Origin: Nitrososphaerota archaeon
GTDB taxonomy: Archaea; Thermoproteota; Nitrososphaeria_A; Caldarchaeales; Caldarchaeaceae
Assembly: GCA_041641305.1 (NCBI GenBank)
Contig: JBEPYN010000001.1
Location: 512,001-576,000, forward strand
Direction of reading: 5' to 3'
DNA length: 64,000 nt
Below the pieces are notes generated by a model that saw only the letters and a program-made list of their open reading frames with translations, did not search any database and had not been told where the DNA came from. The first letter of the stretch is position 1. Every line of letters starts with the position of its first letter. Below, one piece after another: positions 3,358-19,781 of this stretch. The position numbers and the translations under genes were made by a program.

Positions 3358-3618
3358 CCCTCTTAACAGGCTCAGTCAGAGAAACTCTCCGCCAGTCGCG
3401 TAGAAGAGCCCAGAAAGCGGCCGTCAAGAAAATGAAGAAGACGAGGCCTGACACGATGTCTATGCCCTGCGGTATCCCCGTTAGACGGCCGCTTAGCTGC
3501 AGCAGGACTAACCCCCTCCCCGCAACCGACACCGCCGCGGCGACTATTATAACTTGTGGCCTAATTTGCTCGACTCTATGCCCTATTCTCCCGCCGCTCG
3601 CTCTCCTCCAGTAGGACT
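3320..3618 (-). pseudogene. Small membrane protein, apparently 5'-truncated at the island boundary
   Basis: The 3320..3532 frame stays open upstream (VLLEESERRRIGHRVEQIRPQVIIVAAAV) to about 3618 without a good start; two hydrophobic segments. Confidence 0.4.
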
Positions 3619-3731: not shown

Positions 3732-3873
3732 TAAGAGAAGAAAAGGCATCTTTTAAGAGATTATCCTATCCTTACCAGCCTCTAATATACTCTCTTTATG
3801 CAACCAGTAAAGAAGTGAACATCAGGAAGAGTCATAAGGCATAAATAATTAAGGAAAAAATGAGGGGATGGTT

Positions 3874-4026
3874 GGCTGGCAGGCACCCAACCAACAACAT
3901 CTAGGAAACCCAAAAAGAAGCCGGCCGTTTAAGAGTTTAGCGAGGCGTAGACATCGCCCGTTTAATAGTCGGGCGTACCGGCTTCTGGGTTTTATCCTTG
4001 TTGTTGGGCCGGTACGCCTGCCAGCC
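3874..4026 (-). ncRNA. Putative guide (bridge-RNA/tigRNA-like) hairpin RNA overlapping the 3' end of the IS110-like gene
   Basis: Nested stems GGCTGGCAGGC/GCCTGCCAGCC, CCAACAACA/TGTTGTTGG, AAACCCA/TGGGTTT and GAAGCCGGT/GCCGGCTTC enclose an 18+18-nt internal loop capped by GGCG-ATGTCTA-CGCC. Confidence 0.55.
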
Positions 4027-4834
4027 TCTCCTGGGTTTCCCGTCTGATTGTCAGCCAGATTGTTTTTAGTAGTTCTTGTTGTTGTTTTCCTCGAGGTATC
4101 CCATGTAGGACCATTGTTAGCCTTGTCAGGGCCTGTCTGACACCATGGTTGTATCTCTTCTCCCGTCTATTGCCATGGAGTTTTAGATAGTTTCTCACCT
4201 TTGTGAAGGATTTGCTGAAGTCTATAAATGTCAAGAGCTCCGCCAAAGCCTCCCTAGACGTCAAATGATTGTCACCAGATAATCCAAGTTCTTCTACAAG
4301 CCTGTTGTAGACTGGGTATCTTATGCCAGCCTCCTCCGAAATAATTTCTGCCAGCTCTCTCATTCTCTCCTCGTTGAACCTTATCACCGTCCTCAGTATT
4401 CTTCTCTCCATCTCCGAGACTGCCTTAGACATGTTGAGTAGTCTTTGATGAGTTTTTAGGAGGCTTCGGAAAGCGGCTATCATCCTCCTCATTATGAGGA
4501 AGTCTTCATCAACTCTGCGGAACCACTTCTCTTCAATAGCCATCAGAGCCTTGATGTCAGCTCTCGCGGACTTGGATTTTATGTTCAGCCTCTGCCTCAC
4601 CACCTCAATCATCGATAATCTCCGAAGATAGTAGACCTCTGCGCCTCTCCTCAGAAGCATTATGAAACCATCTGTGTGGATTATTGGGATGGTGTCGACG
4701 AATACCTTGTCTCCCGGGCCTGCCGGTATATCCACCGGAGAATCAACATGCCTAAAGTTTTCACCGTCCGTAGTGTAGGTTACCCGGTATCCGGTGTCAT
4801 CCCTCTTCCTGTGAACATCGCAGTAGAACCTCAT
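3992..4834 (-). CDS. Compact IS110-family-derived protein (RuvC-like N-terminus, coiled coil, truncated Tnp/Nop-like domain; TasR-like)
   Basis: FYCDVH resembles GIDV; KSARADIKAL resembles KTDxxDA; ALAELLTFIDFSKSFTKVRNYLKL resembles LAEIGDxxRFxxxxxLxxYxGL; only 280 aa. Confidence 0.6.
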   Translation of the reverse strand: MRFYCDVHRKRDDTGYRVTYTTDGENFRHVDSPVDIPAGPGDKVFVDTIPIIHTDGFIMLLRRGAEVYYLRRLSMIEVVRQRLNIKSKSARADIKALMAIEEKWFRRVDEDFLIMRRMIAAFRSLLKTHQRLLNMSKAVSEMERRILRTVIRFNEERMRELAEIISEEAGIRYPVYNRLVEELGLSGDNHLTSREALAELLTFIDFSKSFTKVRNYLKLHGNRREKRYNHGVRQALTRLTMVLHGIPRGKQQQELLKTIWLTIRRETQERLAGVPAQQQG

Positions 4835-5209
4835 CTACACCACCTTCCTTAGGACTATGGCGTATTCGTGGTAGAGGTCGTGGTTATGACCCTTGACTGT
4901 ATGGTATTTGGCGAAGTGGCCGTTTGAAAGCCTGAACTTCAAGGCCTCGACATGCCGGAGACCAACGTATTCTGCGAGCTCCTTGGTAAGCTCTACGAGG
5001 TTCTTACCTCGTCTGCATCTGTCGCAATTCCTCATCCTGCTTCCGCAGTGGTCGCAGTATGTAGAGAGCCATCTCTGCAGCAAGTATTCTCCGTAGAATC
5101 CGCCTAGGATGCCCACAACCATCAGAAGAACACCCTCGAACAAACGCCCCTCATTGACCAACTGAATCCCGTAGACAAGAGCTATCGCAACCAGCGCAGG
5201 CATCAGCAT
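4835..5209 (-). CDS. Small membrane protein with CxxC-x5-CxxC zinc finger
   Basis: Likely ATG at 5209 after GAGGGTG; two TM helices, then CDHC..CDRC; its TAG stop abuts the ATG of the IS110-like gene. Confidence 0.6.
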   Translation of the reverse strand: MLMPALVAIALVYGIQLVNEGRLFEGVLLMVVGILGGFYGEYLLQRWLSTYCDHCGSRMRNCDRCRRGKNLVELTKELAEYVGLRHVEALKFRLSNGHFAKYHTVKGHNHDLYHEYAIVLRKVV

Positions 5210-6822
5210 ACTGCTGGACACCCTCTGCACCCCCACACCATTCCTCCGCGGCCGATGGGCAGTGTTTCCACGGATGGGTCGGACCCGCCCATCCGCAGAG
5301 TCCCTGGCCATCCAGACGACCTTACCCCCGGGAACCAGGGGTTTTGGAGGGCTTGGAGACACATATTCCCTCCCCATGAATGGGGGAGGCGGCCTATGAC
5401 AGCCGAGAAAATCTCCAAACCCTCTCAAAGCCGTCTGGAGAATGGTGTGGAGAACGTTAACAGAACATCGTAACCATCTGTCCCCGCCCACGGATTTGGA
5501 GCCGCTCCCACCAAGCGCCTCCATGACGCCATGATAGGGAGAACCCGTGGAGGAGACACCATGCCTCCCCCATGGAAAAACAGGCTCCAAGAATTCCCAG
5601 GCGGAGTATCTGAACAAACGTCTGACTATCTTCTGCCGGTCGCCTGTCCTGTCCACGGTGTCTAGGGGGCTGTGTAGTCATGCGTAGCACGGCCTACACA
5701 CCCCGCCATGCCAACCATGCGTAGCACGAGAAGGCATGCTTTGTCGAGACACCTGGACAGGCTTCAGCCGCATCGGCTCCGCCCCGGCTCCGTCATGCGT
5801 AGCACGGCCGAAGCCTTTCCCATCCCATGCATCCCGGAGAAGCCTGTCATGCGTAGCACGGCCAGGCAACTCCACAGAGACACCCGTCATGCATGGCACG
5901 GCCGGGTATCTGGGGCGGCAGATGCATGGGCTGGAGCGGAGCCGGAAGCCAGCCAACCACCCCCGCCACCCCACAAACAATTGAATGGGGTGGACGCCAT
6001 CTCTCAGGCGTATATGGGAAAAAACAAGGAGTGTTTGGATGGCTGGAGTTGTTCAGCTATGTTTGAATTAAAATTCTCCCGTTATGGGCTCAGGATGGCG
6101 GGGAGAGTCAGCCAACCTTCCCCCTCTATCCGGGCTTGTAGCCGTTTCTTCGACCCCTTTCCCCTGCTGCGGCTTGGGGATTTCCTTTGCGAGGGGTCTT
6201 TGGGCGAACGGCGGTCAGCCCGGCGCGGACGCCCAGCAAAACATGGAGAAGAGAAGGGTTCTAACGGGTTAGAATCATGTTATTGCCCCAGCCTATTCCA
6301 CCCCCTTGGATGAACCGTCCAGCACCCGTCTTTCCCCGGAGCGGTCTAGTGCCCAGGGCTTGGATAAATCATCCATGCACCGGAGCGTCCCCGAGCCTCA
6401 CCGGACCATGCCCTTAGCGGGCAAGCCATCAACCCGGAGAACCCTAGACCATATCCGGAGAGGCGGCAGCTCATCCAAGGGAGCAGCCCATCATCCCGCG
6501 GAGACGCTCAGGCAAAGCCTATAAGGAGGACTCTACTCCTCCCTATGGGCATCCCTGCCACGCCTCTGTGGTTCGGGGGGAACTCTGGGCGGCTGGGGTG
6601 CCCTCTCCACTCCATGTCCGCAGCGCTCCTATGCTTGCCGGCTTCGACGACCTGCGTGAATGTCGGGGGACTTTGGGGACAGGTTTGCCGGCACCCATCC
6701 CCTCGCCGCAGCCTTTTCAGGCTGTGGACCGGTTCCGCATCCGGCTCCCCAGCTCAGCCCCGTCGCCGGGGCTTCATGGGAAGCTCACGCAAGCCAGCCA
6801 ACCCCTTGGAGAGGCTGGTCTA
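5210..6822 (-). ncRNA. Putative large structured ncRNA or ssDNA structural region
   Basis: No credible ORF; many perfect stems, including 11-bp long-range pairings 5233-5243/5440-5450 and 6303-6313/6471-6481; lies downstream of a TATA at about 6847-6853. Confidence 0.45.
5671..5910 (-). repeat. Array of five hairpins with conserved apex (GGCCGTGCTACGCATGAC) and variable complementary flanks
   Basis: Cores at 5677-5694, 5716-5728 (partial), 5792-5809, 5846-5863 and 5886-5903 (variant). Confidence 0.85.
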
Positions 6823-6842
6823 ACATCATTTCCCCAACCTCC

Positions 6843-7051
6843 CCCATATAAAGTTTTGGTGGCAAACCTGAACGAGATTTGAACGAGAGTTGAACGAGAA
6901 ATGTACGACGGCGGCTAATATTGTTCAACGCCTCTCTGGTGAGCCAAAAATCCGGCGAATCAGGCTGACCATAATTGTTCAATCTCGTACAAATCTCGTT
7001 CAGTTCTCGTTCATTTCTCGTTCAAGTTTGCCACCAAAAGTTTATCTAGGG
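6843..7051. promoter_or_regulatory. Palindromic divergent promoter pair with 11-bp iterated TGAACGAGA sites (or plasmid-type origin)
   Basis: ~60-bp inverted arms, each with 3x TGAACGAGA(NN) plus TGTACGA, ending outward in GCCACCAAAA-(C/G)TTTAT (BRE-TATA-like). Confidence 0.7.
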
Positions 7052-7448
7052 TTCCTTACGTCTCAGACTAACCTATTTAAAGGTATATGGTTGAAAACCG
7101 CGGACAAGCAACCCCAATTCCAGGAAATTTCGGGGTTCTGGAGAGACCTAAAATTTCCTGTAAACGCTGTTTTTCAGCCAAGTGTCTATCGGTTGACAAA
7201 TTATAGTCAACCCCCTTCCGTAGAAGGGTGAAATTTCGGGGAATTAGGCGCGGTAATACGGTGACCAAAATTACTTGGCTATGGTAATGCCTCTTGTCTC
7301 TATGGCTTGTAGAGGCGATTTTTCAGCTTTCTGGGACGGGTTTTTGAGATTTTTTGTGGGCTGCTCGTCGTTTGTCGATTCTGAGGAGACGATATGTGGA
7401 GGCTCGTGGTTTATCCGTCTATATGCTTGCCGCCGTATCTGCTTCTAT

Positions 7449-8104: not shown

Positions 8105-8830
8105 TTGGACAATAGCTCTTCGTCATTGGCGATGCCGAGGAAAACAAATCGCTCATATATACTGCATCGAGGTATTGGGAAAGTTGAGAAAAAAGCTACT
8201 TATGAGGAGCTAAACCTGAAACTGCTTGAACTCTTATCCGACTGCTGGGACAGAGTCATATCGCTCGATTTTGAGACATACGTTGTCGAAAACAGATTCT
8301 TGAACGATGAGAAAATACTGTCAGTTAGTTTCGCTAGGAGGGTTTCGGGGAAAACAATGCAGGCTGAAGGTATCGAGGTTAAGTCTAATGTTTTAAATAA
8401 AGAAGACAAAGACTCTGAAAAACAAATGCTTGATTGGTTGGATGAGGAGCTGGGGAAGATTAATCCTCTCGGAGTCGTAGGATATATGCTCAGAGCGTAC
8501 GATATTCCGCTTTTAATAATGAAAAAAGAGCGCAACAAGGTGGAAGGCTCACCGTACTGGAAAATAATAGACCTAACAGAGAACGCAGTACATGTGGACC
8601 TCTACCACCTGCTCAGGGACAGAGGTTACAATAATCTGTACGACGCCATATCATCACTATCCCAAAATCTTCCTCTAAAGAAAGTAGAAGATTACTTATC
8701 TCAAAATAGAGAAATGAAGGGAAAAGCTGTCAAAGAGTTATGGGAAAAAGGGGCACTCAAAGAATACAACGAAGGACATGCATATAACATGTTGCTGATT
8801 GCGGAATGGCTCACATTCGGAGGAGAGTAA
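8105..8830 (+). CDS. DnaQ/PolB-type 3'-5' exonuclease-like protein
   Basis: ISLDFETY (ExoI) and GYMLRAYDIPLL (ExoII); ExoIII is atypical (YNEGH); start may be 8131. Confidence 0.6.
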   Translation: MDNSSSSLAMPRKTNRSYILHRGIGKVEKKATYEELNLKLLELLSDCWDRVISLDFETYVVENRFLNDEKILSVSFARRVSGKTMQAEGIEVKSNVLNKEDKDSEKQMLDWLDEELGKINPLGVVGYMLRAYDIPLLIMKKERNKVEGSPYWKIIDLTENAVHVDLYHLLRDRGYNNLYDAISSLSQNLPLKKVEDYLSQNREMKGKAVKELWEKGALKEYNEGHAYNMLLIAEWLTFGGE

Positions 8831-9715: not shown

Positions 9716-10354
9716 ATGATGGCGATGAATCCCGGCAAGGTATTGCCGGCTATCCTGCTTGTTGTAGGCCTGTTGGCCGGGTTCTTCAGCGGCTCGGTTC
9801 TAAGCCCCGTAACAGTCACCAGCACGTTGGTCAAAACCTCCATTTCGACAAGCGTAAGCACGGAGCAGGTGACAAAAACTGTGTCCACCACCGTGACTTC
9901 GTACGAGACCCTTAGATGGTCTACTACGCTTTTCGTAACGGCCCGCACCACGTTAACTTCGGTCTCAACCAGTATCTCCACCCGGACAACCACGGTTACA
10001 TCGACCACTACCGCAACCACTACAATGGTTTCAACCGTTTACCCCGCCGTCTCGGGAACCGTGCTGGTGAGAGACAGAGGCAGCGGCTCTAAGGAGACGC
10101 CGCCGTTCACGCTCGAGGCGACCTCAGACCTAAGGATAAAAATCACGATAAGGGCTACGGCCGACCTCCGATACGTCGGCTTATATTGGTACCTGTATGA
10201 AGTGGGCGATGACCTATCCTATAAGAGGGGCTCTATTCTAGAGGAGCAGGGGTCCTTCGAGTTCTACGCCGCAGCCATTCCGCCCGGTAACTGGTACATA
10301 CAGGTGAACGCCGCCAACTGCAACTGGGAAATCACTGTCGAAAAAGTTACTTGA
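9716..10354 (+). CDS. Membrane-anchored Thr/Ser-rich surface protein with C-terminal beta domain
   Basis: N-terminal TM, long T/S/V tract, PPC-like C-terminus (PPGNWYIQV). Confidence 0.7.
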   Translation: MMAMNPGKVLPAILLVVGLLAGFFSGSVLSPVTVTSTLVKTSISTSVSTEQVTKTVSTTVTSYETLRWSTTLFVTARTTLTSVSTSISTRTTTVTSTTTATTTMVSTVYPAVSGTVLVRDRGSGSKETPPFTLEATSDLRIKITIRATADLRYVGLYWYLYEVGDDLSYKRGSILEEQGSFEFYAAAIPPGNWYIQVNAANCNWEITVEKVT

Positions 10355-11957
10355 CAGATTCCGAGAACTCTCTCCATCTTTCCAGCATAATTTTCCGCCT
10401 CTCCTTCAGGAATTCTTCATAGTTCTCGCGTTTCCATAGCTCAGGGTCGAGCGGAATGCAGTGCTCCCGTAACAGAGCAGGGTCCTGGTCGTAGAGTTTG
10501 CTGAGATACTCCGACGGCTCTTTATCCCTCAGAGTCTTGTTACTCAGGCTTGAGAGAAATGTGATGTTTGCCGCATCATTCTCCAGCTCGGGGTCTAGCA
10601 ACTTCCTTTTGAAAAGGTATTGTGGGAAGATGTGGTGCTCGTTTATCTCACTATCTCTTAGCTCCCATATCTTATCCGGGTCACCCCCATCCCTGGGCGT
10701 CCAGTCACGGGCATTATAAGATTTGAGGAGAATAGATAGCAGGGTTCGGTGCTCGTCGGAGAATTCCCGCTCCAGATAGTCGGGCAAGAGCTCCTTCACC
10801 TTCAGATTTTCTACTAGTCGTCCAACATCCCAACTATTCTTCACCGATTCCAAGTCTTCTAAGAGGTCGCTCTCCAGCCGTCCAGTATATCTGCCATTGA
10901 ACGATGCCAGTACAAGCCACTTAACCAGCTCATGTTTAAACTTCTTGTCAACCAGCTTGCCCTGTGACAGATAGTTGTTATGCATGATTATCGCGGGCAT
11001 GACGGGGAGGTAATGCGATACCAAGAACTTCGGCCTGGCTCCGTATTCCTGGAATATGTCGAGAACACTCTGGATAGCCTTGAACGTATTGTTTAAGTAT
11101 TTGAGCAAAGTCTCGGAATTGTTCCTCATCAGCTCATTCAGAGCCGGCTTAAATTTTACCTGACCAGTTGCAATGGCTAAGTATGCCCGTATAAGAGGCG
11201 GGGCGTCGACATCATATCCCCTGGTTTGCAAGTCGCTCAGCAATGTTTCAAACTGGTCCCTGAACCTCTTTCCCTGTTCATGTATGATTTTACCGGACAG
11301 GAGCGCTAATACGAGGTCGTGTAGCTTCACCTTGGTTCCCTGGCTGTTCAAGGCCACGAACATCCGCGAGATATTCTCGAAGGCCTCGAGATGGTTATCC
11401 CTGCTCCACTTTATCGTAACCTCCATGAAGGTCACCTTGTAATCGTTGAAACGCTGCCAAAGCCTCGTCAGGCTATCGTAGATTTTCGGTTGTCTCACAG
11501 AATGCTTCTGAACCAATTCAGAATATTCCCTCGCCTGCAACACCTCTGACACTTTGTACAAGTTACCGCCTGGATTAGTTCTGCCTCGGCCAAGAATGAA
11601 TTTCTCGTTCAATGCATCGAATAGAAGGTTAATCCTTTTTGTTTCCTGGTTTATGGTTATTTCGCCATTATTTATCAGGAGTAGAGATGTCAGCCTCTGT
11701 CTGCCATCAATCACCATGTAGCGTCCGTTCTTTAAATTCATGTTATCGGCGATTGGCCTGAAAATGTTTTCGAGCTCCTCACGCACATCCGTAGGTATCT
11801 CGGCCACGCATATCGACCCTATTGGAAAACCGTTGTAAATAGACTCCGCGAGCTCCAGCACCTGCCTGTTACGCCATACAAAGGGTCTCTGAATATCAGG
11901 GACTATGAACTCACCCTGCTCAAGCTTAGACATCAAATCCCTAAGGAGCATATCCAT
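10347..11957 (-). CDS. gmrSD: GmrSD type IV restriction endonuclease (DUF262 + DUF1524)
   Basis: PDIQRPFVW, IDGRQRLTS, FVALNSQG and C-terminal EHHIFPQ...ANITFLSSLSN. Confidence 0.85.
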   Translation of the reverse strand: MDMLLRDLMSKLEQGEFIVPDIQRPFVWRNRQVLELAESIYNGFPIGSICVAEIPTDVREELENIFRPIADNMNLKNGRYMVIDGRQRLTSLLLINNGEITINQETKRINLLFDALNEKFILGRGRTNPGGNLYKVSEVLQAREYSELVQKHSVRQPKIYDSLTRLWQRFNDYKVTFMEVTIKWSRDNHLEAFENISRMFVALNSQGTKVKLHDLVLALLSGKIIHEQGKRFRDQFETLLSDLQTRGYDVDAPPLIRAYLAIATGQVKFKPALNELMRNNSETLLKYLNNTFKAIQSVLDIFQEYGARPKFLVSHYLPVMPAIIMHNNYLSQGKLVDKKFKHELVKWLVLASFNGRYTGRLESDLLEDLESVKNSWDVGRLVENLKVKELLPDYLEREFSDEHRTLLSILLKSYNARDWTPRDGGDPDKIWELRDSEINEHHIFPQYLFKRKLLDPELENDAANITFLSSLSNKTLRDKEPSEYLSKLYDQDPALLREHCIPLDPELWKRENYEEFLKERRKIMLERWREFSESVK

Positions 11958-12162
11958 GTCGTGGAAAAAATCAACGAGAAGTATAAATCTTAAGCGACAT
12001 TTTTCTCAACCCCTGCCTCCAATGCTTCGTTCTCCGCCACTAGACAGACTGAGCTGCCACCCATTATTCCACAGAATCATATGTTCCTACCGTTCCCATC
12101 AACCCTCTGAAACAGCCACGTTCTCTTAAAACTTAATTTTTAAGGTCAGGATTATAGTTTTC

Positions 12163-15100
12163 ATGAATTTTGGGCTTGATTTCTGGGTGGCTTGTTTATC
12201 TGAGAGAGGCTACCAACTTCATAGAGACAAGCTTGACATCGAAACTCTGTTCAAGACAAGGGTTCTTCTCAGCAGTGATGTGAAGGAGGCTTACCTACTC
12301 TATAGAGATGATTTTGTAGAGGTTGTGGCACTAATTTTTGACGAGCTTCCAGGCAGGGGTTATTGCGCTAGGATTGCTCGGCGATGGCGTGAAAAAAGAC
12401 TGCTTAGGCCTTTCCTGATATTTACCGACAATATTTCGTCTTATGCGGTGATTGTTAGAGGGCCGGGGCTGGGTGAGGAGGTTAGAGTGCTGCATTTAGA
12501 GGGGCAGTTGTATAGAACAGATTTGGAGGCTCTCGAGTCAGTAACCCATCCAGGAAAACCTGACGAGCTCAGGAAGAAATATGATACGGAGTTCTTCCCA
12601 TATGAAAAGGTTAGGGAAGAGTTTTTCCAGCAGTATAAGAAACTGTTTGAGAAAGTCATTGAAATCGTTAAACCCGTTTTCGGAGAGAACCGTGCTAAAG
12701 AATATGCTCAACGGTTTCTAGGCAGGCTGATGTTTCTCTACTTTCTCCAGAGAAAGGGGTGGTTAAACAACGATAGACAGTTCATAAACAAGTTGTCCGG
12801 TTTCAGAGAGCTTAACAGAGTCTTCTATGAGCTTTTAAACAAACCGGGGGGAGGAGACGGTGTACCATATCTAAACGGCAGCCTCTTTGACAGGGAGGAG
12901 TATCTAACAGCTGAGGCTGAGAGAAAGATAGAGAAGAAAATGGATAGTTTGTTTAATGAAGCTAGGGAGGTGTTTAACCGATACAACTTCACCGTCAACG
13001 AGACTTCGCCGCTGGAGGTTGAGGTAAGCGTAGACCCTCTGCTGCTGGGAACAGTTTTGGAGAACATGCTTCCCGAGCATGAGAGGGGAGCCAAAGGAAC
13101 CTTCTACACACCGGTCAACGAGATAAACTTCATCTGTAGAAAAGCTATACAGGCTTGGCTGGGCCTAGAGGACAGGGTAGACGAGACAGGGACCAGGCTA
13201 ATCGACGGGCTCGAGGAATACATCAACCAGTTAAAAGAAAGGCGGGACGAGGCGGAGATAAGAGAGTTCAGGAACAGGCTTCTATCTTTGAAAGTATGTG
13301 ATCCCGCCGTCGGCTCGGGAGGGTTCCTCGTGGTGATGATGCAGACGATACTGAGCCTTATTCAGGAGGTTGAGGAGGCTGTAGGCTGGCACGCCGACCC
13401 AGCTATCTACAAGTCGAGAATCCTACCCAACCTCTATGGATTCGACATAGAGCCCGAGGCCGTCGAGATAGCGAGACTCCGTCTATGGCTCTCCCTCGTA
13501 GTTGACCAGAAGAAACCCGAGCCACTCCCCAACCTAGACCTAAACATCATGGTGACAAGCGACTCCCTCAGCCTCCCACAAGGTGGACAATCCCTTATCG
13601 ACCAATACTACACATCTAGCAGGATTAGAGAACTGGTCGACAACCTGAACGAGCTTAAAAAGAAATACACAACCGAACACAATCCAACAGCGAAGAAAGA
13701 GCTTCAGAACCGCATCGAGAAAATCTGGCGAAAACTTGTGGAGGAATTTGGGAGCGAAGAATTAAAGACTCTACCGCTTGAGCTAATCATGATGAGCCGA
13801 CCAGACATAATAGTGATGAATCCACCCTACGTAAGACAGGAGAAAATACCTCCTAGAACAAAGGAGCACTATGTAAAGAGCTATAGACTGGACAGGACAT
13901 CGGACATCTACGCATTCTTCATGAAAAGAGCCCTTAACTTACTTAATGAGAAGGGTGCAGCATCCATAATATCATCCGACAAGTGGCTCGAGGTCGGGTA
14001 CGGCTTAAAGCTGCAGGAGACGCTGAAACCCCATCTCCTGGCTGTCTACGGCCAGCGTGAAAGAAGCTTCGGAGCAGACATAAACACAGTAATAACAGTG
14101 CTCAGAAAAGAAAAACTACCAGACAACCACAGCATACAGTTCATCTACCTAAGCAAATACGGCGAAAAAACAGTCATCAACCACAAATCCATACCAAGAG
14201 GAGAGCTCAAGCCAGGGAAATGGTACTACCTAAGAGCACCGAAAATATTCGAAGAAACCCTACTACCAAAACTAACCCACAAGCTGAAAGACTTCGCCGA
14301 AATAAAATTCGGCATTAAGACCGGTGCTAATGAGTTCTTCTACATGAAGGACGTCAGCCACCTATACGAGGCAGACTACCTAGCAAACCCAAGAAGATTC
14401 CACGAATGGGGAGTAAATGCACGAAACCAAAAAGAACTCGAAGAACAAGAACTTATATACATAGAGAATGAAGCAGGAAAAAGATTCGTGATAAATAAAA
14501 AAGATGTAAGACCTATTCTCCGGTCGCCAGAAGAAATTCACGAATATATGTTTTCACAATTCAAGAAACTCTGTCTGTATACAAGCAATCCAGGTTCATT
14601 AACCACAAAATACATTAGAAAATATGAAAAAGAGGGAATACACCGCCGATCCACTCTCAGAAATAGGTCACCTTGGTGGAAACTTCCAGAGTTAGAAACC
14701 ACTAGTATCGTTTTGATAAAGTCATTCCACAATGTAATTTATGAACCGATATGTCCTAAACCCGTTCTCGTGGACCAGAGAGCTTATGTATTTAAGCCCC
14801 GCAACCTCAAATCATTAGAAGATGTGTGGAAGTACTTCAACAGCACGATTTTTTACTTAACTATCGAACTTTATTGTGATAGGTTGGGCGGAGGAGCGAC
14901 AGATATCAGGGTCGAAGATTACAAAGAAATGCCAGTCCCCGACTTGTCCCGATTACATATAGCGTTTGACGCTAAAAGGTTGTGGAATAGAAAACCATTA
15001 CCTTACAATGAGGAGGTGCAGCAGGCTGATAGACGAGAATTAGACAAAGCTGTGCTTAGAGTCCTAGGCTTCCCCGAATCCGAACTAGATAGGCTTGTCG

Positions 15101-15210
15101 ATGAACTTCACAAGGCTTTTGTATGGGTTGTCGAGGACCGCTTGATAAAATCCGGCAGACCTCTACACGTAGAAGAAGAGGAAGGGGCTGTGGTTGACGA
15201 AGATAGTTGA
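12163..15210 (+). CDS. Large N6-adenine DNA methyltransferase (Eco57I/type IIG-like)
   Basis: GTFYTP, motif I DPAVGSGGF, motif IV MNPPY, YLNGSLF, C-terminal TRD-like region. Confidence 0.9.
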   Translation: MNFGLDFWVACLSERGYQLHRDKLDIETLFKTRVLLSSDVKEAYLLYRDDFVEVVALIFDELPGRGYCARIARRWREKRLLRPFLIFTDNISSYAVIVRGPGLGEEVRVLHLEGQLYRTDLEALESVTHPGKPDELRKKYDTEFFPYEKVREEFFQQYKKLFEKVIEIVKPVFGENRAKEYAQRFLGRLMFLYFLQRKGWLNNDRQFINKLSGFRELNRVFYELLNKPGGGDGVPYLNGSLFDREEYLTAEAERKIEKKMDSLFNEAREVFNRYNFTVNETSPLEVEVSVDPLLLGTVLENMLPEHERGAKGTFYTPVNEINFICRKAIQAWLGLEDRVDETGTRLIDGLEEYINQLKERRDEAEIREFRNRLLSLKVCDPAVGSGGFLVVMMQTILSLIQEVEEAVGWHADPAIYKSRILPNLYGFDIEPEAVEIARLRLWLSLVVDQKKPEPLPNLDLNIMVTSDSLSLPQGGQSLIDQYYTSSRIRELVDNLNELKKKYTTEHNPTAKKELQNRIEKIWRKLVEEFGSEELKTLPLELIMMSRPDIIVMNPPYVRQEKIPPRTKEHYVKSYRLDRTSDIYAFFMKRALNLLNEKGAASIISSDKWLEVGYGLKLQETLKPHLLAVYGQRERSFGADINTVITVLRKEKLPDNHSIQFIYLSKYGEKTVINHKSIPRGELKPGKWYYLRAPKIFEETLLPKLTHKLKDFAEIKFGIKTGANEFFYMKDVSHLYEADYLANPRRFHEWGVNARNQKELEEQELIYIENEAGKRFVINKKDVRPILRSPEEIHEYMFSQFKKLCLYTSNPGSLTTKYIRKYEKEGIHRRSTLRNRSPWWKLPELETTSIVLIKSFHNVIYEPICPKPVLVDQRAYVFKPRNLKSLEDVWKYFNSTIFYLTIELYCDRLGGGATDIRVEDYKEMPVPDLSRLHIAFDAKRLWNRKPLPYNEEVQQADRRELDKAVLRVLGFPESELDRLVDELHKAFVWVVEDRLIKSGRPLHVEEEEGAVVDEDS

Positions 15211-18200
15211 CAATTCAAAGGAAACTCTGCAGAGTGTTCTTTTGAAGGAGTTACAGGAGGTTTCTGAGGTTGCTATCGCGACAGCGTACTTCAACATCAC
15301 GGGCTTCGGCGACATAGAGCCCGGCTTAGCAGACAAACCTCTACGCCTCCTACTAGGCAGGCCTCCCACCGAGCAGATAGAATGGGAGGAAGAAGTTCTT
15401 AGAGAGCTTGAGGAATATGAGGATGACCCTCGATACTTCAGTCTTCTGCAGAGAGTGATAACGTTTTTTGAACATTATTCTAGGGAGGTGAGAATAGTTG
15501 ATGGAAAGTTTTTCCACGGCAAGGCGTTTCTGGGAGTTCACCCGTCTTTCCAAGACGTTAGGAGGGGGTTTGCATCCGTGGGCTCAAGCAACTTCACCCA
15601 TGGAGGACTGGTTACCAACAGGGAGCTGAACATGTTCACAACGGATAGGGAGACTGTTCAAGAGCTGGCGGAATGGTTTCAAAAACAGTGGAGCGATATG
15701 TTTTCAAGAGACTATAAGAACGAGTTCCTAAGCCTTCTAAAAACATACGTCACCTCATGGAGTCCATACGAGGTCGCGGCCAAAGCATTGTGGGAAACCT
15801 ATAAAAAAGATTGGGAAACCAAGAGGCCGAATATACTCAAAAACCTGTACCCGCATCAGCAGCTAACCTTCATAGACGCATTAGACAAGCTGGAAAAATA
15901 CGGCGGCGTAGTTATCGCCGATTCCACGGGTCTTGGAAAAACCCTTACGGCCTTGGCCATAGCTCACTACTATAAGGGTCTTGGTGTCAAGTCTCTGCTC
16001 ATAGCTCCCAAAAGCATACTCGACACTACTTGGATGACCGAGATGGATAGCTCCGACATATGGGTTAAGTGGATAAACTCCGAGAAACTTTCAGCAGACC
16101 CAGAAATAGTGGAACAATATGTAAACAATGATAAAAGCATTGGGTTGATTATCGTTGATGAGGCGCATTATTTCCGCAATCCTGCAACAAACCGTTACAA
16201 CGCACTAAGCAAGCTGATTAAACTTACCAGGTCCAAGGTGGTTCTGGTAACTGCCACACCTGTAAACACAAGCCTCATGGACCTGTACCACATAATGGCG
16301 CTCTATCTTCCAGACAACATCATATTTGACGAATACAGAACTACGCTGGGAGAATATTTCATACAGAGCCAGAAAAAATGGCTGAACAACGAGCCAGTAG
16401 ACATGGAAGATATTCTGAGGAAATTCGTGGTGAGACACTCTAGACAATTAGCAAAGGCGCTGGACAGGGAGGGCAGGATAAAATTCCCGGAGAGACAACT
16501 ACACACCATAAAATACGACCTGCCACTCGACGTGGAAAAACTATACAATCTCCTCGACAAACTTAACCTATATTTCTACGAGCTCAGCGTAGACAAGCTC
16601 TCTCAACAGTTCAGGCTACCTGATGGAACACCCGCCATAAAATATGAGAAACAAGCCGAAAACCTGAAAGACCTGATAAAGGTGATACAGAAGATAGGTC
16701 TTCTCAAAAGACTGGAAAGCAGCATACATGCGTTCAGAGAATCCATCAACAGAATTAAGAAATACATTGAGTACGCAACAATCTATGCAGAAAAAGAATC
16801 CATATTCATACCTCCCAAGCTCAAAGGGGACCTGTTCGCTCTGCTCGGCGAAGAAGAGGAACAGGCAACCCTTCCAACAATGGAGGACCTATTCTATAAA
16901 CATCGACACCTTCTCGAAAAATGCAGTCTAAGCAACCATGAGAAACAAAAACTTATCCAGAGCAACAGGGAAGACCTGAAGACAATTGAAGAAGTGATAT
17001 CGCTGCTACCCGCCAGAGACACAAAAATTGATGCTTTTCTAAAGGAAGTTAGCGATGTCGCCAAAAAATTGTCAAAAAGGAACGGCATAATAATATTCAC
17101 CCAATACATCGACACAGCAAAATACGTTTTCGATGCCCTCAGAAACAGCTACCCGTACTCTATCCTCGTAACAGGCGAGGGCGGAAGAGATAGCAGTGGT
17201 AAGAGAATTGAGGAGGCCGAGGCTGTTGAACACTTTCAGAAAAACGGAGGCATATTGGTTAGCACAGACGTTTTGAGCGCCGGGCAAAACCTCCAAAACG
17301 CTCAATACATAGTCAACTACGACTTCCCATGGAACCCCGTAATACTTATACAAAGGGCTGGGAGAGTTGACCGAATAGGCTCCCCCTATGACAGCGTCTA
17401 CCTCTTCAACGTTCTACCCCATCAAGGAGGCCCCGACGACCCAACCAGCCTCGAATACTTCCTGGGCCTCATGACGAGGCTCTACCAGAGACTTGAGGCC
17501 ATCAGAGCCACCATAGGGCTTGACGCATCAACCCTGGGTGAAGAAGCCATACCTAGAGACTATACAGAGCAGAGAAGAATAGCCGCCGAGGACAAAAAAG
17601 TTTTAGCGGAGCTTGAGAAAAAACTTGAGCAATTCACGAAAGACCCGTTGGACGACCTAGCCCAAATAATCAACGAGAGAGGAATAGACTGGGTTGAGAA
17701 GCTTCCCAACGGAATAGGAGCGTTGAAAAAAGACAGCTTCGACGCTGTTTTCGCCCTCTTCACAGACGGGCAACAGCACTACTGGAGGTTGAAAAACCTA
17801 GACACGGGCGAGACCTTGACGAAGCCGTCCGAGATAGTTCCTATCCTGCTCCGCGGGGACGTTCACAGCAAAGGAGAGAGGATAAACTACGACATATTAG
17901 TGGATAAGCTGAGACAATTAAAAGAGGAGCTCAGAACAGAGCTGTTGAAAAAACAGACAATAACCACAACCATAGAAGACATCCCAGTATCGGTTACCAA
18001 AATCGTTAAAGAAATATACGAGGCACTAGAGAGGTTGGGAGAGGAGGGAATAGTTTTAGCCGCAAGGTTCAGAAAACAAGCCAACAACCCAACCACCGTC
18101 AAAATACTGAAAAAAGCACTAGAGGAGGGAAAACTACTCGAAGAAGCAAGGAAAATCCTCAAAGAAGACACCCAAACCAAAGCATCAAACAACAACCAGA

Positions 18201-18265
18201 CACTAAAAATCAAAAGAATATGCTGGTGCTACATAAGGAAGGAAAACCAACCCAACAACCCGTAA
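15194..18265 (+). CDS. PLD nuclease domain fused to SNF2-like SF2 helicase
   Basis: FHGKAF..GSSNFT (PLD), ADSTGLGKT, DEAH, TATP, QRAGRVDRIG; overlaps the methyltransferase stop. Confidence 0.9.
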   Translation: MTKIVDNSKETLQSVLLKELQEVSEVAIATAYFNITGFGDIEPGLADKPLRLLLGRPPTEQIEWEEEVLRELEEYEDDPRYFSLLQRVITFFEHYSREVRIVDGKFFHGKAFLGVHPSFQDVRRGFASVGSSNFTHGGLVTNRELNMFTTDRETVQELAEWFQKQWSDMFSRDYKNEFLSLLKTYVTSWSPYEVAAKALWETYKKDWETKRPNILKNLYPHQQLTFIDALDKLEKYGGVVIADSTGLGKTLTALAIAHYYKGLGVKSLLIAPKSILDTTWMTEMDSSDIWVKWINSEKLSADPEIVEQYVNNDKSIGLIIVDEAHYFRNPATNRYNALSKLIKLTRSKVVLVTATPVNTSLMDLYHIMALYLPDNIIFDEYRTTLGEYFIQSQKKWLNNEPVDMEDILRKFVVRHSRQLAKALDREGRIKFPERQLHTIKYDLPLDVEKLYNLLDKLNLYFYELSVDKLSQQFRLPDGTPAIKYEKQAENLKDLIKVIQKIGLLKRLESSIHAFRESINRIKKYIEYATIYAEKESIFIPPKLKGDLFALLGEEEEQATLPTMEDLFYKHRHLLEKCSLSNHEKQKLIQSNREDLKTIEEVISLLPARDTKIDAFLKEVSDVAKKLSKRNGIIIFTQYIDTAKYVFDALRNSYPYSILVTGEGGRDSSGKRIEEAEAVEHFQKNGGILVSTDVLSAGQNLQNAQYIVNYDFPWNPVILIQRAGRVDRIGSPYDSVYLFNVLPHQGGPDDPTSLEYFLGLMTRLYQRLEAIRATIGLDASTLGEEAIPRDYTEQRRIAAEDKKVLAELEKKLEQFTKDPLDDLAQIINERGIDWVEKLPNGIGALKKDSFDAVFALFTDGQQHYWRLKNLDTGETLTKPSEIVPILLRGDVHSKGERINYDILVDKLRQLKEELRTELLKKQTITTTIEDIPVSVTKIVKEIYEALERLGEEGIVLAARFRKQANNPTTVKILKKALEEGKLLEEARKILKEDTQTKASNNNQTLKIKRICWCYIRKENQPNNP

Positions 18266-19189: not shown

Positions 19190-19630
19190 ATGAGGCTAAA
19201 GGTGAGCAAAAAGGTCTGGAAAGAGCTTAACATCCCAGATAAGGGTGATTTCAAGGCTGTTGTAAGGGGTAGGATGTTTAAAAGCAGGTATGATACTACG
19301 GCTGGTCTAAGGCTGCGGATACCCAGCCACTATACATACCTGTTTAGGGAAAACGGCTTCATGGAGAATGGGGAAAATAATGGTCAAAGGAGTTTGTTTA
19401 TTGACCTTTGGGTTGAGGACGGTATGCTATGCATGTCATACAAGCCTGACGAGGAATATGACCATTACGAGAATATACCGATTTTTAAAGCACCTAATTA
19501 TGGGAAAGGAGTTGGTTTCTGCGCAAGATGCCAAATAGGATATATTATCGAATTTTCTCCTAAGTGTCCTATTCATGGTATAACTAAGAACAAAACCAAG
19601 AAAAAGAAAAACAACAACATAACTAATTAA
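19190..19630 (+). CDS. Hypothetical protein with C-terminal zinc ribbon
   Basis: 146 aa; CARC...CPIHG. Confidence 0.5.
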   Translation: MRLKVSKKVWKELNIPDKGDFKAVVRGRMFKSRYDTTAGLRLRIPSHYTYLFRENGFMENGENNGQRSLFIDLWVEDGMLCMSYKPDEEYDHYENIPIFKAPNYGKGVGFCARCQIGYIIEFSPKCPIHGITKNKTKKKKNNNITN

Positions 19631-19781
19631 TCATGCGGCGGGCGCCATTGAGTTTAAAGAAGCGTCTGAAGATACCCAGGTTCAGCTCCCTCGCTATGCC
19701 GTAAACCATCCAGGTCAGGACAAGCGTCAAAATGAGCGTGACGAAGACCATCACAAACTCCAAGTCGGTGGACGACGTCAT
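19623..19781 (-). CDS. Small single-TM protein (52 aa, not in ORF track)
   Basis: MTSSTDLEFVMVFVTLILTLVLTWMVYGIARELNLG... starts 4 nt after the upstream stop. Confidence 0.5.
   Translation of the reverse strand: MTSSTDLEFVMVFVTLILTLVLTWMVYGIARELNLGIFRRFFKLNGARRMIN

What the first reader, a model, noticed from the sequence alone, without database searches (positions are those of the whole stretch)
5210..6822. About 1.6 kb of densely base-paired non-coding DNA: candidate large structured RNA
Seen: unusual for a gene-dense archaeal genome, with no plausible protein. Nested stems include CCACACCATTC/GAATGGTGTGG (5233/5440), CGGATGGG/CCCATCCG, CCTCCCC/GGGGAGG, CCCTTGGATGA/TCATCCAAGGG (6303/6471), GGTCTAG/CTAGACC and AGCCCCG/CGGGGCT. 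A 5' hairpin sits about 25 nt downstream of the leftward TATA. G-U polarity favours the minus strand at 5230-5910 and 6800-6820, but is mixed at 6300-6700. Inference: a large ncRNA (in the spirit of GOLLD/ROOL/OLE, no homology claimed) or a single-strand origin or leading region of an integrated element.
Basis: partly seen in the sequence, partly recalled or inferred. Interest (0 to 1): 0.7.

Follow-up and report, generated by a model that had tools for sequence, protein, structure and literature searches.

The report
Giant leader RNA of archaeal island
The 1.6-kb stretch is the long, intricately folded front end of the message that a mobile DNA island of a hot-spring archaeon uses for its RNA-guided DNA-cutting gene; it matches no catalogued RNA family and most likely keeps that dangerous gene switched off until needed.

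Summary
Observation confirmed: all named stems exist, the minus strand folds far better than shuffles (z -10, -6) and Rfam has no match. It is not a free-standing RNA gene or a DNA origin. It is the 5' leader, from about 25-30 nt after a TATA box to a buried ribosome-binding site, of the operon orf2 / TasR-IS110-like gene / guide hairpin in a 16-kb island whose insertion site the guide spells. Homologs occur in 13 of 75 Caldarchaeales genomes, with conserved modules: a K-turn (16/22 sense, 1/22 antisense), a covarying pseudoknot, five hairpins with a shared apex whose loops switch in concert between elements, and a G-rich arm whose best partner, 0.6-11.7 kb downstream, is the transcript's 3' tail (26 of 30 complete loci). 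The same leader also heads LAGLIDADG endonuclease genes. Best reading (0.55): a cis-regulatory leader that holds a homing-nuclease message folded, end-closed and silent. Expression and trigger are untested. The scan had noted the guide system and the hairpin arrays on other DNA; the K-turn, pseudoknot, cross-locus arm-tail test, loop switching and endonuclease cargo are added here.

The parts
6845..6852 (-). TATA box of the leader promoter
   Evidence: the same TATA-like box precedes the leader in 11 of 12 homologs listed
5237..6822 (-). Whole structured 5' leader (about 1.6 kb); 5' end inferred from the TATA position
   Evidence: homologs
6554..6820 (-). Module 1: 5' hairpin (6820-6794) and multibranch domain with a box C/D-type K-turn (6779-6752), predicted L7Ae site
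   Evidence: K-turn in 16/22 leaders, 1/22 antisense, 3.9 expected from shuffles
6262..6553 (-). Module 2: variable long rods; two copies of a 16-nt motif shared only with the C2 copy (L022)
6130..6236 (-). Module 3: conserved pseudoknotted domain (three helices; a 5-bp helix crosses two stacked 6-bp helices)
   Evidence: 94.8% of cells paired, 9 of 17 pairs with double changes, 0/500 shuffles, slid controls 25-49%
6108..6124 (-). Arm 1, a weaker G-rich copy of the arm
6017..6046 (-). Internal tail-like C/A-rich stretch plus U-tract (possible internal terminator); local partner of arm 2
5948..6011 (-). Module 4: two hairpins, then arm 2 (5964-5948), 17 nt complementary to the 3' tail of the operon
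5640..5935 (-). Module 5: multibranch domain with five hairpins sharing one apex (5903-5887, 5863-5847, 5809-5793, about 5730-5715, 5694-5678)
5480..5606 (-). Module 6: conserved two-hairpin junction
   Evidence: 27 pairs, 7 with double changes
5233..5450 (-). Module 7: hairpin burying the ribosome-binding site (5392-5372), AUG at 5364, closing helix burying the orf2 start
5203..5364 (-). 53-codon uORF overlapping the orf2 start; in other loci the same AUG starts the Tas or LAGLIDADG protein
4835..5236 (-). orf2, 133 aa: membrane and zinc-ribbon N-half fused to the C-terminal remnant of another gene (two separate genes in L022)
   Evidence: no Pfam hit
3992..4834 (-). 280-aa RuvC + Nop protein with IS110/TasR fold
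   Evidence: TM 0.60-0.65 to IS621, ISCro4, TasR
3881..3991 (-). Guide hairpin with two 7-nt spacers (3971-3965, 3938-3932)
3853..3880 (-). 3' tail (3880-3864) complementary to arm 2, followed by the U-tract terminator
3541..3547 (+). Left island junction: half-site identical to spacer A
   Evidence: empty site in G002 and G004
19649..19655 (+). Right island junction: half-site complementary to spacer B (6 of 7)
6842..7051 (.). Divergent control region: 67-nt inverted repeat with 11-bp repeats between two TATA boxes
   Evidence: analogous blocks with other repeat sequences in L022, L057, L091
19190..19630 (+). Small beta-rich, zinc-ribbon protein; a core gene that lies divergent from the leader promoter in eight shorter elements
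   Evidence: only weak B3-type DNA-binding matches

Best explanation
The region is the cis-acting 5' leader RNA of the main operon of a family of integrated elements in hot-spring Caldarchaeales. SHOWN from sequence comparison: it lies between a TATA box and a buried ribosome-binding site; it has conserved, covarying RNA modules (K-turn, pseudoknot, arm, repeated-apex hairpins); its arm is complementary to the last bases before the terminator of whatever operon follows; and the operon ends in a candidate site-specific nuclease, either the RNA-guided Tas-like protein whose guide spells the element's empty insertion site or a LAGLIDADG endonuclease. INFERRED: host L7Ae binds the K-turn; the pseudoknot and the arm-tail duplex protect the two ends, giving a long-lived message whose start sites are buried, so the nuclease is made only on a trigger; an element-specific factor that binds the five identical hairpin apices is the likeliest trigger; the nuclease then cuts element-free copies of the site and the element spreads or is retained by homing repair.
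For: Folding z -10.4 and -6.1. TATA-leader-RBS-gene order in homologs. K-turn 16/22 sense, 1/22 antisense, 3.9 expected. Pseudoknot covariation with both controls passed. The arm's best downstream partner is the 3' tail in 26 of 30 untruncated loci, at 0.6-11.7 kb; cognate pairs beat permuted ones, -32.8 versus -28.2 kcal/mol. Arm-tail cofolding is favoured at 37 and 70 C, and the tail pairs with the leader in the full-length fold. Start sites are paired in the fold. All five loops change together in L135 on a 93-96% identical scaffold. The leader heads LAGLIDADG genes in L024 and L028. The guide matches the empty site.
Against: Removing the tail does not open any ribosome-binding site in the computed fold, so a direct hok-like coupling is not shown. 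Arm-tail mismatches show no G-U bias once base composition is allowed for (22/356 versus 6/68), so the duplex could be a DNA-level repeat. Within lineages cognate pairing is only marginally better than permuted (p 0.017), the 26 loci were chosen after seeing the match, and kin are not independent. Only 17 of 69 tas loci have the leader within 3.5 kb, and several recent leader-less copies exist in a complete genome. No partner for the hairpin apices was identified. Nuclease activity of the Tas-like protein is untested.
Confidence: 0.55

Rival explanations
1. The leader is (also) a structural RNA of the effector complex: it is cut out or terminated at the internal U-tract and captures the guide's 3' tail through the 17-bp arm, in cis or in trans, like a tracrRNA or scaffold, for guide maturation or for insertion of the island.
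For: The arm invades the tail through an unpaired toehold and displaces the guide's basal helix. Arm and tail covary by lineage more than by locus. Leader-less tas copies keep an intact tail. One locus (L157) has leader plus guide with no tas gene between them. Faure et al. found no accessory RNA for tigRNA maturation (PMC12045711).
Against: The same arm-tail pair closes LAGLIDADG units that have no guide. The repeated apices do not follow the Tas Nop domain or guide scaffold: L141 and L051 share both but differ in apex. Most tas loci lack an adjacent leader.
Confidence: 0.17
2. The leader is an RNA-based processive antiterminator, like conAn2, EAR or put, that lets polymerase read through U-tract terminators inside the element's long operon.
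For: It starts right after the promoter; the 11.7-kb version (L022) has C-run plus U-tract sites between gene blocks; U-tracts are the archaeal termination signal read by aCPSF1 (bioRxiv 10.1101/2021.05.26.445813); conjugation operons of Gram-positive plasmids begin with such RNAs (PMC8191782).
Against: Internal U-tracts were found in only 2 of 24 units. The arm matches best the final terminator, which must stay active. No ConAn1-like partner was found, and RNA antiterminators are described only for bacterial polymerase in the paper read.
Confidence: 0.11
3. The structure acts as single-stranded or cruciform DNA (single-strand origin, transfer leading region, or inverted repeats for a recombinase), not as RNA.
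For: The large version carries helicase, primase and transfer-like genes; arm-tail mismatches have no strand bias; an iteron-like repeat block lies next to it; most apex motifs contain GTG, the trinucleotide read by pRN1-type primases (own knowledge).
Against: A sense-strand K-turn and a pseudoknot with an A-rich loop are RNA features. The element ends are set by the guide target, 43-521 bp beyond the tail in the loci where a half-site was found, and the upstream modules lie outside the arm, so the arm and tail are not terminal repeats.
Confidence: 0.08
4. Module 3 is a ribozyme core (its helix order recalls P3-P7-P8 of group I introns) that cuts or splices the transcript.
For: Compact pseudoknot with an invariant G-C pair beside a variable bulge and a conserved AAGA joiner; association with LAGLIDADG genes.
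Against: No P4-P6 domain, no splice-site features, joiner one base shorter than in group I (comparison from own knowledge); no Rfam ribozyme or intron hit even at E 10 or 5; module 3 is missing from many leaders.
Confidence: 0.05
5. Neutral GC-rich remnant of decayed genes or repeats.
For: Module 2 has almost no homologs; module content varies widely.
Against: Compensatory changes, conserved K-turn position, concerted loop change.
Confidence: 0.02

Closest known systems
TIGR-Tas stem-loop arrays with TasR (Faure et al. 2025, PMC12045711; TIGRFinder preprint 10.64898/2026.09.09.750476)
   Same: The downstream protein has the RuvC + Nop fold and a dual-spacer hairpin guide; tandem hairpins lie next to the gene.
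   Different: The leader hairpins carry no spacers and keep one apex on different stems. Neither paper, in the passages read, describes a leader, K-turn, pseudoknot or 5'-3' pairing.
IS110/IS1111 non-coding ends (bridge RNA, seekRNA) and IS1111 sub-terminal inverted repeats
   Same: Non-coding structured flanks around an IS110-fold gene; an inverted repeat encloses the gene.
   Different: The guide is downstream and single-looped; the upstream RNA is up to 1.6 kb, has no variable guide loops, and also serves LAGLIDADG genes; the repeat is not at the element ends.
hok/sok-type mRNAs (tac, mok uORF, 3' fold-back inhibition; terms as in PMC3562002, mechanism from own knowledge)
   Same: 5'-3' pairing across the message, buried start site, a uORF overlapping a small membrane-protein gene, mobile-element context.
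   Different: Ten times larger, no antisense RNA identified, and removing the 3' tail does not expose the start sites in the computed fold.
conAn2, EAR and put antiterminator RNAs (PMC8191782)
   Same: Large structured RNA at the head of a mobile-element operon that can contain internal terminators.
   Different: Archaeal, U-tract/aCPSF1 termination, no ConAn1 homolog found, internal terminators in few units.
GOLLD, ROOL, OLE large ncRNAs (own knowledge; Rfam scan)
   Same: Very large, multibranched, pseudoknotted, mobile-element-linked RNA of unknown biochemistry.
   Different: No Rfam match; not an independent gene; length and module content vary.
CsrB/RsmZ sponges and RNA-phage operator hairpins (own knowledge)
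   Same: Several hairpins with different stems display one apex, as multivalent protein sites do.
   Different: The apex is element-specific and switches in concert; no binding protein is known.

Membership tests
Any Rfam 15 family (including GOLLD, ROOL, OLE, introns, ribozymes) | Covariance-model match at gathering score | tested here: not met
   only tRNAs and sub-threshold chance hits
GOLLD/ROOL/OLE-type large ncRNA | Independent gene with its own terminator and stable length | tested here: not met
   Runs into RBS and gene; about 0.4-1.6 kb; modules gained or lost. An internal U-tract exists in the window copy only among short units
GOLLD/ROOL/OLE-type large ncRNA | Abundant discrete transcript | not testable with these tools
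TIGR stem-loop array | Units with two 8-12 nt variable spacers between box C and box D | tested here: not met
   Module 5 hairpins have paired variable stems and a constant apex, no spacers (definition)
TIGR stem-loop array | Adjacent Nop-domain Tas protein | tested here: met
   but the leader also precedes LAGLIDADG genes
TIGR stem-loop array | Repeat motif matches the boxes bound by the cognate Tas protein | tested here: inconclusive
   Some apices resemble the guide's C/D junction (L024, window family) but the apex does not follow the Nop domain or guide scaffold
IS110 bridge RNA / seekRNA | Target- and donor-binding loops matching element junctions | tested here: not met
   The junction match lies in the downstream guide, none in the leader
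IS1111 sub-terminal inverted repeats | Repeats within a few bases of both element ends | tested here: not met
   Island ends at about 3548 and 19648; arm at 5964, tail at 3864
Group I intron | P4-P6 domain plus P3-P7 core, splice sites | tested here: not met
   Only 16 nt between the P3-like and P7-like strands; no Rfam hit
hok/sok-type addiction mRNA | 3' end pairs with the 5' leader | tested here: met
   (computed, not probed)
hok/sok-type addiction mRNA | Loss of the 3' end opens the translation start | tested here: not met
   start sites stay paired with or without the tail (minimum-energy fold only)
hok/sok-type addiction mRNA | cis-encoded antisense RNA | not tested
   Needs RNA data
conAn-type antiterminator | Multiple internal terminators downstream, and a partner protein gene | tested here: inconclusive
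   Internal U-tracts in 2 of 24 units; no partner identified
K-turn (box C/D type) | 3-nt bulge, tandem G-A pairs, flanking stems | tested here: met
   L7Ae binding itself not testable here

The most novel reading that the evidence does not exclude
The leader is a large scaffold RNA of a new kind of RNA-guided mobile system: it closes the whole element transcript end to end (up to 11.7 kb), docks the guide's tail, and carries a switchable five-fold identity tag by which co-resident elements tell self from non-self, and it is needed for programmed insertion or homing of islands that encode no recognisable integrase.
Probability: 0.17. Interest if true: 0.85.

Novelty: new variant of a known kind. 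Interest (0 to 1): 0.62.

Why it matters
It defines an uncatalogued archaeal RNA family of up to 1.6 kb with testable parts, tied to an uncharacterised RNA-guided TasR/IS110 relative. How TIGR-type guides mature and how such nucleases are kept from harming the host are stated open questions (PMC12045711), and this leader offers a concrete candidate for both. That one leader drives either an RNA-guided or a LAGLIDADG nuclease suggests the Tas-like protein acts as a homing nuclease rather than the recombinase. The concerted change of five loops on an otherwise unchanged scaffold is unexplained and points to a co-evolving partner or a templated homogenising process.

Tried and rejected
Rfam at gathering and E-value thresholds: nothing. 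Viral contigs: no leader motif and no close tas relative. Two bacterial pattern hits in GTDB are chance (model scores 21.5 bits or none). Protein-coding reading of the region: rejected. Kissing partner for the apex loops within about 3 kb in cis: none. Apex as a decoy for the cognate Tas Nop domain: not supported. G-U strand bias in the arm-tail duplex as proof of RNA pairing: fails after normalising. Bulge-helix-bulge at the arm-tail duplex (circularisation by the splicing endonuclease): not seen on inspection. Tail-dependent opening of start sites: not seen. RNA as transposition intermediate: rejected because both island ends lie outside the transcription unit. Resemblance of module 3 to RNase P, twister, HDV, group I and group II cores was considered from memory and does not hold beyond short motifs. 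The divergent small protein as RNA-binding partner: fold gives only weak B3-type DNA-binding matches. Literature searches found no description of this RNA; subscription journals are largely not covered.

Full report
1. Observation. Folded as RNA, the minus strand of 5200-6000 gives -423 kcal/mol against -347 for shuffles (z -10.4) and 6000-6830 gives z -6.1. Over the whole region the minus strand is about 100 kcal/mol more stable than the plus strand and uses 67 rather than 40 G-U pairs; only around 5900-6300 does the plus strand fold lower. Rfam has no match at any threshold tried. The long ORFs are shadows: no Pfam hit, and homologs differ by frame-breaking indels with substitutions mostly even across codon positions, unlike the neighbouring gene.

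2. Context. The host is a Caldarchaeum relative, judged from the names of the closest protein hits. Downstream on the minus strand lie orf2 (5236-4835), a 280-aa gene (4834-3992) and a hairpin with two 7-nt variable stretches ending in a U-tract. The 280-aa protein folds with pLDDT 91 and matches IS621, ISCro4 and TasR (TM 0.60-0.65). The two spacers spell the two half-sites at 3541-3547 and 19649-19655, and relatives G002 and G004 have these flanks joined. So the region lies in a 16.1-kb island with restriction-modification cargo. Earlier scan notes had claimed this; I checked it here. Upstream are a TATA box (6852-6845), a 67-nt inverted repeat with 11-bp repeats and a second, divergent TATA box.

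3. Family. The genome holds two more copies. A covariance model of module 4 finds 32 places in 13 of 75 genomes of the order and a model of module 3 finds 16 places in 9. Outside the order there were only two archaeal MAG contigs. In homologs the RNA starts 25-30 nt after a TATA-like box and ends in a hairpin that buries the ribosome-binding site of the first gene. That AUG starts an N-terminally extended Tas protein (L021, L051, L135), a LAGLIDADG endonuclease (L024; also L028 by context) or, here, a 53-codon uORF overlapping orf2. Length from promoter to first gene varies from roughly 0.4 to 1.6 kb, and in L022 and L144 pilin-like genes sit between modules 3 and 4. Only 17 of 69 tas loci have the leader within 3.5 kb; some have it far upstream (10.7 kb in L022), others lack it.

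4. Modules. (a) A box C/D-type K-turn lies about 50-90 nt after the TATA box: 16 of 22 leaders on the sense strand, 1 on the antisense strand, 3.9 expected from shuffles. This is the best evidence that selection acts on RNA. (b) Module 3 has two stacked 6-bp helices crossed by a 5-bp helix; 94.8% of cells pair, 9 of 17 pairs show double changes, no shuffle reaches this and slid controls give 25-49%. One homolog has lost a base from both strands of the crossing helix. (c) Module 4 is two hairpins with compensatory changes followed by a G-rich arm. (d) Module 5 holds five hairpins with one apex on different stems. The apex differs between element families, which carry 2-8 copies each. In L135 all five loops read GGU where the window has UAC four times and CAU once, on a scaffold otherwise 93-96% identical. 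(e) Module 6 covaries. (f) Module 7 buries the start sites.

5. The arm and the tail. Scanning all downstream sequence for the best duplex with the arm returns the bases just before the final U-tract in 26 of 30 untruncated loci, from 0.6 to 11.7 kb away, whether the unit ends in a guide or a LAGLIDADG gene. Cognate pairs average -32.8 kcal/mol against -28.2 for permuted pairs, but within lineages the excess is small (p 0.017) and the loci are related. In cofolding, the arm takes the tail from the guide's basal helix at 37 and 70 C; in the full 2.97-kb fold the tail pairs with the leader's first arm copy. Mismatch types do not show whether the pairing is in RNA or DNA. The pair is not the element's terminal repeat, since the ends lie elsewhere.

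6. Mechanism. Shown: position, conserved RNA structure, buried start sites, end-to-end complementarity and nuclease cargo aimed at the empty site. Inferred: L7Ae on the K-turn, the pseudoknot and the terminal duplex stabilise a folded, silent message; a factor recognising the repeated apex releases translation; the nuclease cuts element-free alleles so that the island, in which I recognised no integrase gene, is kept or copied by homing repair. I give this 0.55; the leader identity alone is about 0.85. The logic resembles hok mRNA, but the computed fold does not couple tail loss to start-site opening. Rivals: a tracr-like or scaffold role in guide maturation or insertion (0.17), processive antitermination (0.11; internal U-tracts in only 2 of 24 units), a DNA-level structure (0.08), a ribozyme (0.05).

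7. Comparison with what is known. It is not a TIGR array (no spacers), not a bridge RNA, not an Rfam family, and not an independent GOLLD/ROOL-like gene. It works most like the regulatory leaders of mobile-element operons (hok-type messages, conAn2). I found no description in the held literature. Earlier scan agents reported the guide system and the hairpin arrays in other genomes; their reading of the hairpins as spacer-less guides for Tas is only weakly supported, because the apex does not follow the Nop domain or guide scaffold and the leader also serves LAGLIDADG genes.

8. Verdict. Real, conserved, uncatalogued RNA leader of an archaeal RNA-guided mobile element; function inferred, expression untested. 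Interest 0.62; new variant of a known kind, with a 0.17 chance of being a new kind of scaffold RNA.

Noticed in passing
window 7170-7345: A second conserved non-coding motif, always divergent from the leader, with copies at C2:81175, C2:365684-365963, L024, L027, L028, L036 and L135; possible origin, transfer origin or operator.
   Followed up: partly
window 6842-7051: Inverted repeat with three 11-bp repeats per arm between divergent TATA boxes; other elements have the same layout with different repeat sequences (L022, L057, L091), probably an operator array.
   Followed up: partly
window 19190-19630: Small beta-rich zinc-ribbon protein that is a core gene of these elements; it has lost its N-terminus relative to 166-194 aa homologs and is separated from the leader promoter by the cargo.
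   Followed up: partly
L141 and L051, Tas C-terminal third: The Nop domain is mosaic: distant Tas proteins share a nearly identical C-terminus together with the same guide scaffold, suggesting swapping of Nop domain plus guide as a unit.
   Followed up: partly
L022 5300-17000 (G000 C2 about 450-462 kb): Large version of the element: pilin-like, HerA/VirB4-like, helicase and primase genes all on one strand, with C-run plus U-tract and hairpin cassettes between gene blocks; orf2 of the window is a fusion of its first and last genes.
   Followed up: partly
L157 (G016 C4): Leader followed directly by a guide hairpin with no tas gene: a likely non-autonomous unit.
   Followed up: no
G009 C1 130650, 151734, 503729, 690380, 1084522: Five near-identical leader-less tas cassettes of 1.3-1.6 kb with different spacers in Ca. 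Caldarchaeum subterraneum.
   Followed up: partly
L025 (G009 C1 about 18-27 kb): An independent element with almost the same spacers and similar restriction-modification cargo sits at the same site in another species, but with a different apex family.
   Followed up: partly
window 8105-8830, 10347-18265: Cargo: PolB-type 3'-5' exonuclease, GmrSD-domain protein, large methyltransferase and helicase, i.e. a defence island.
   Followed up: no
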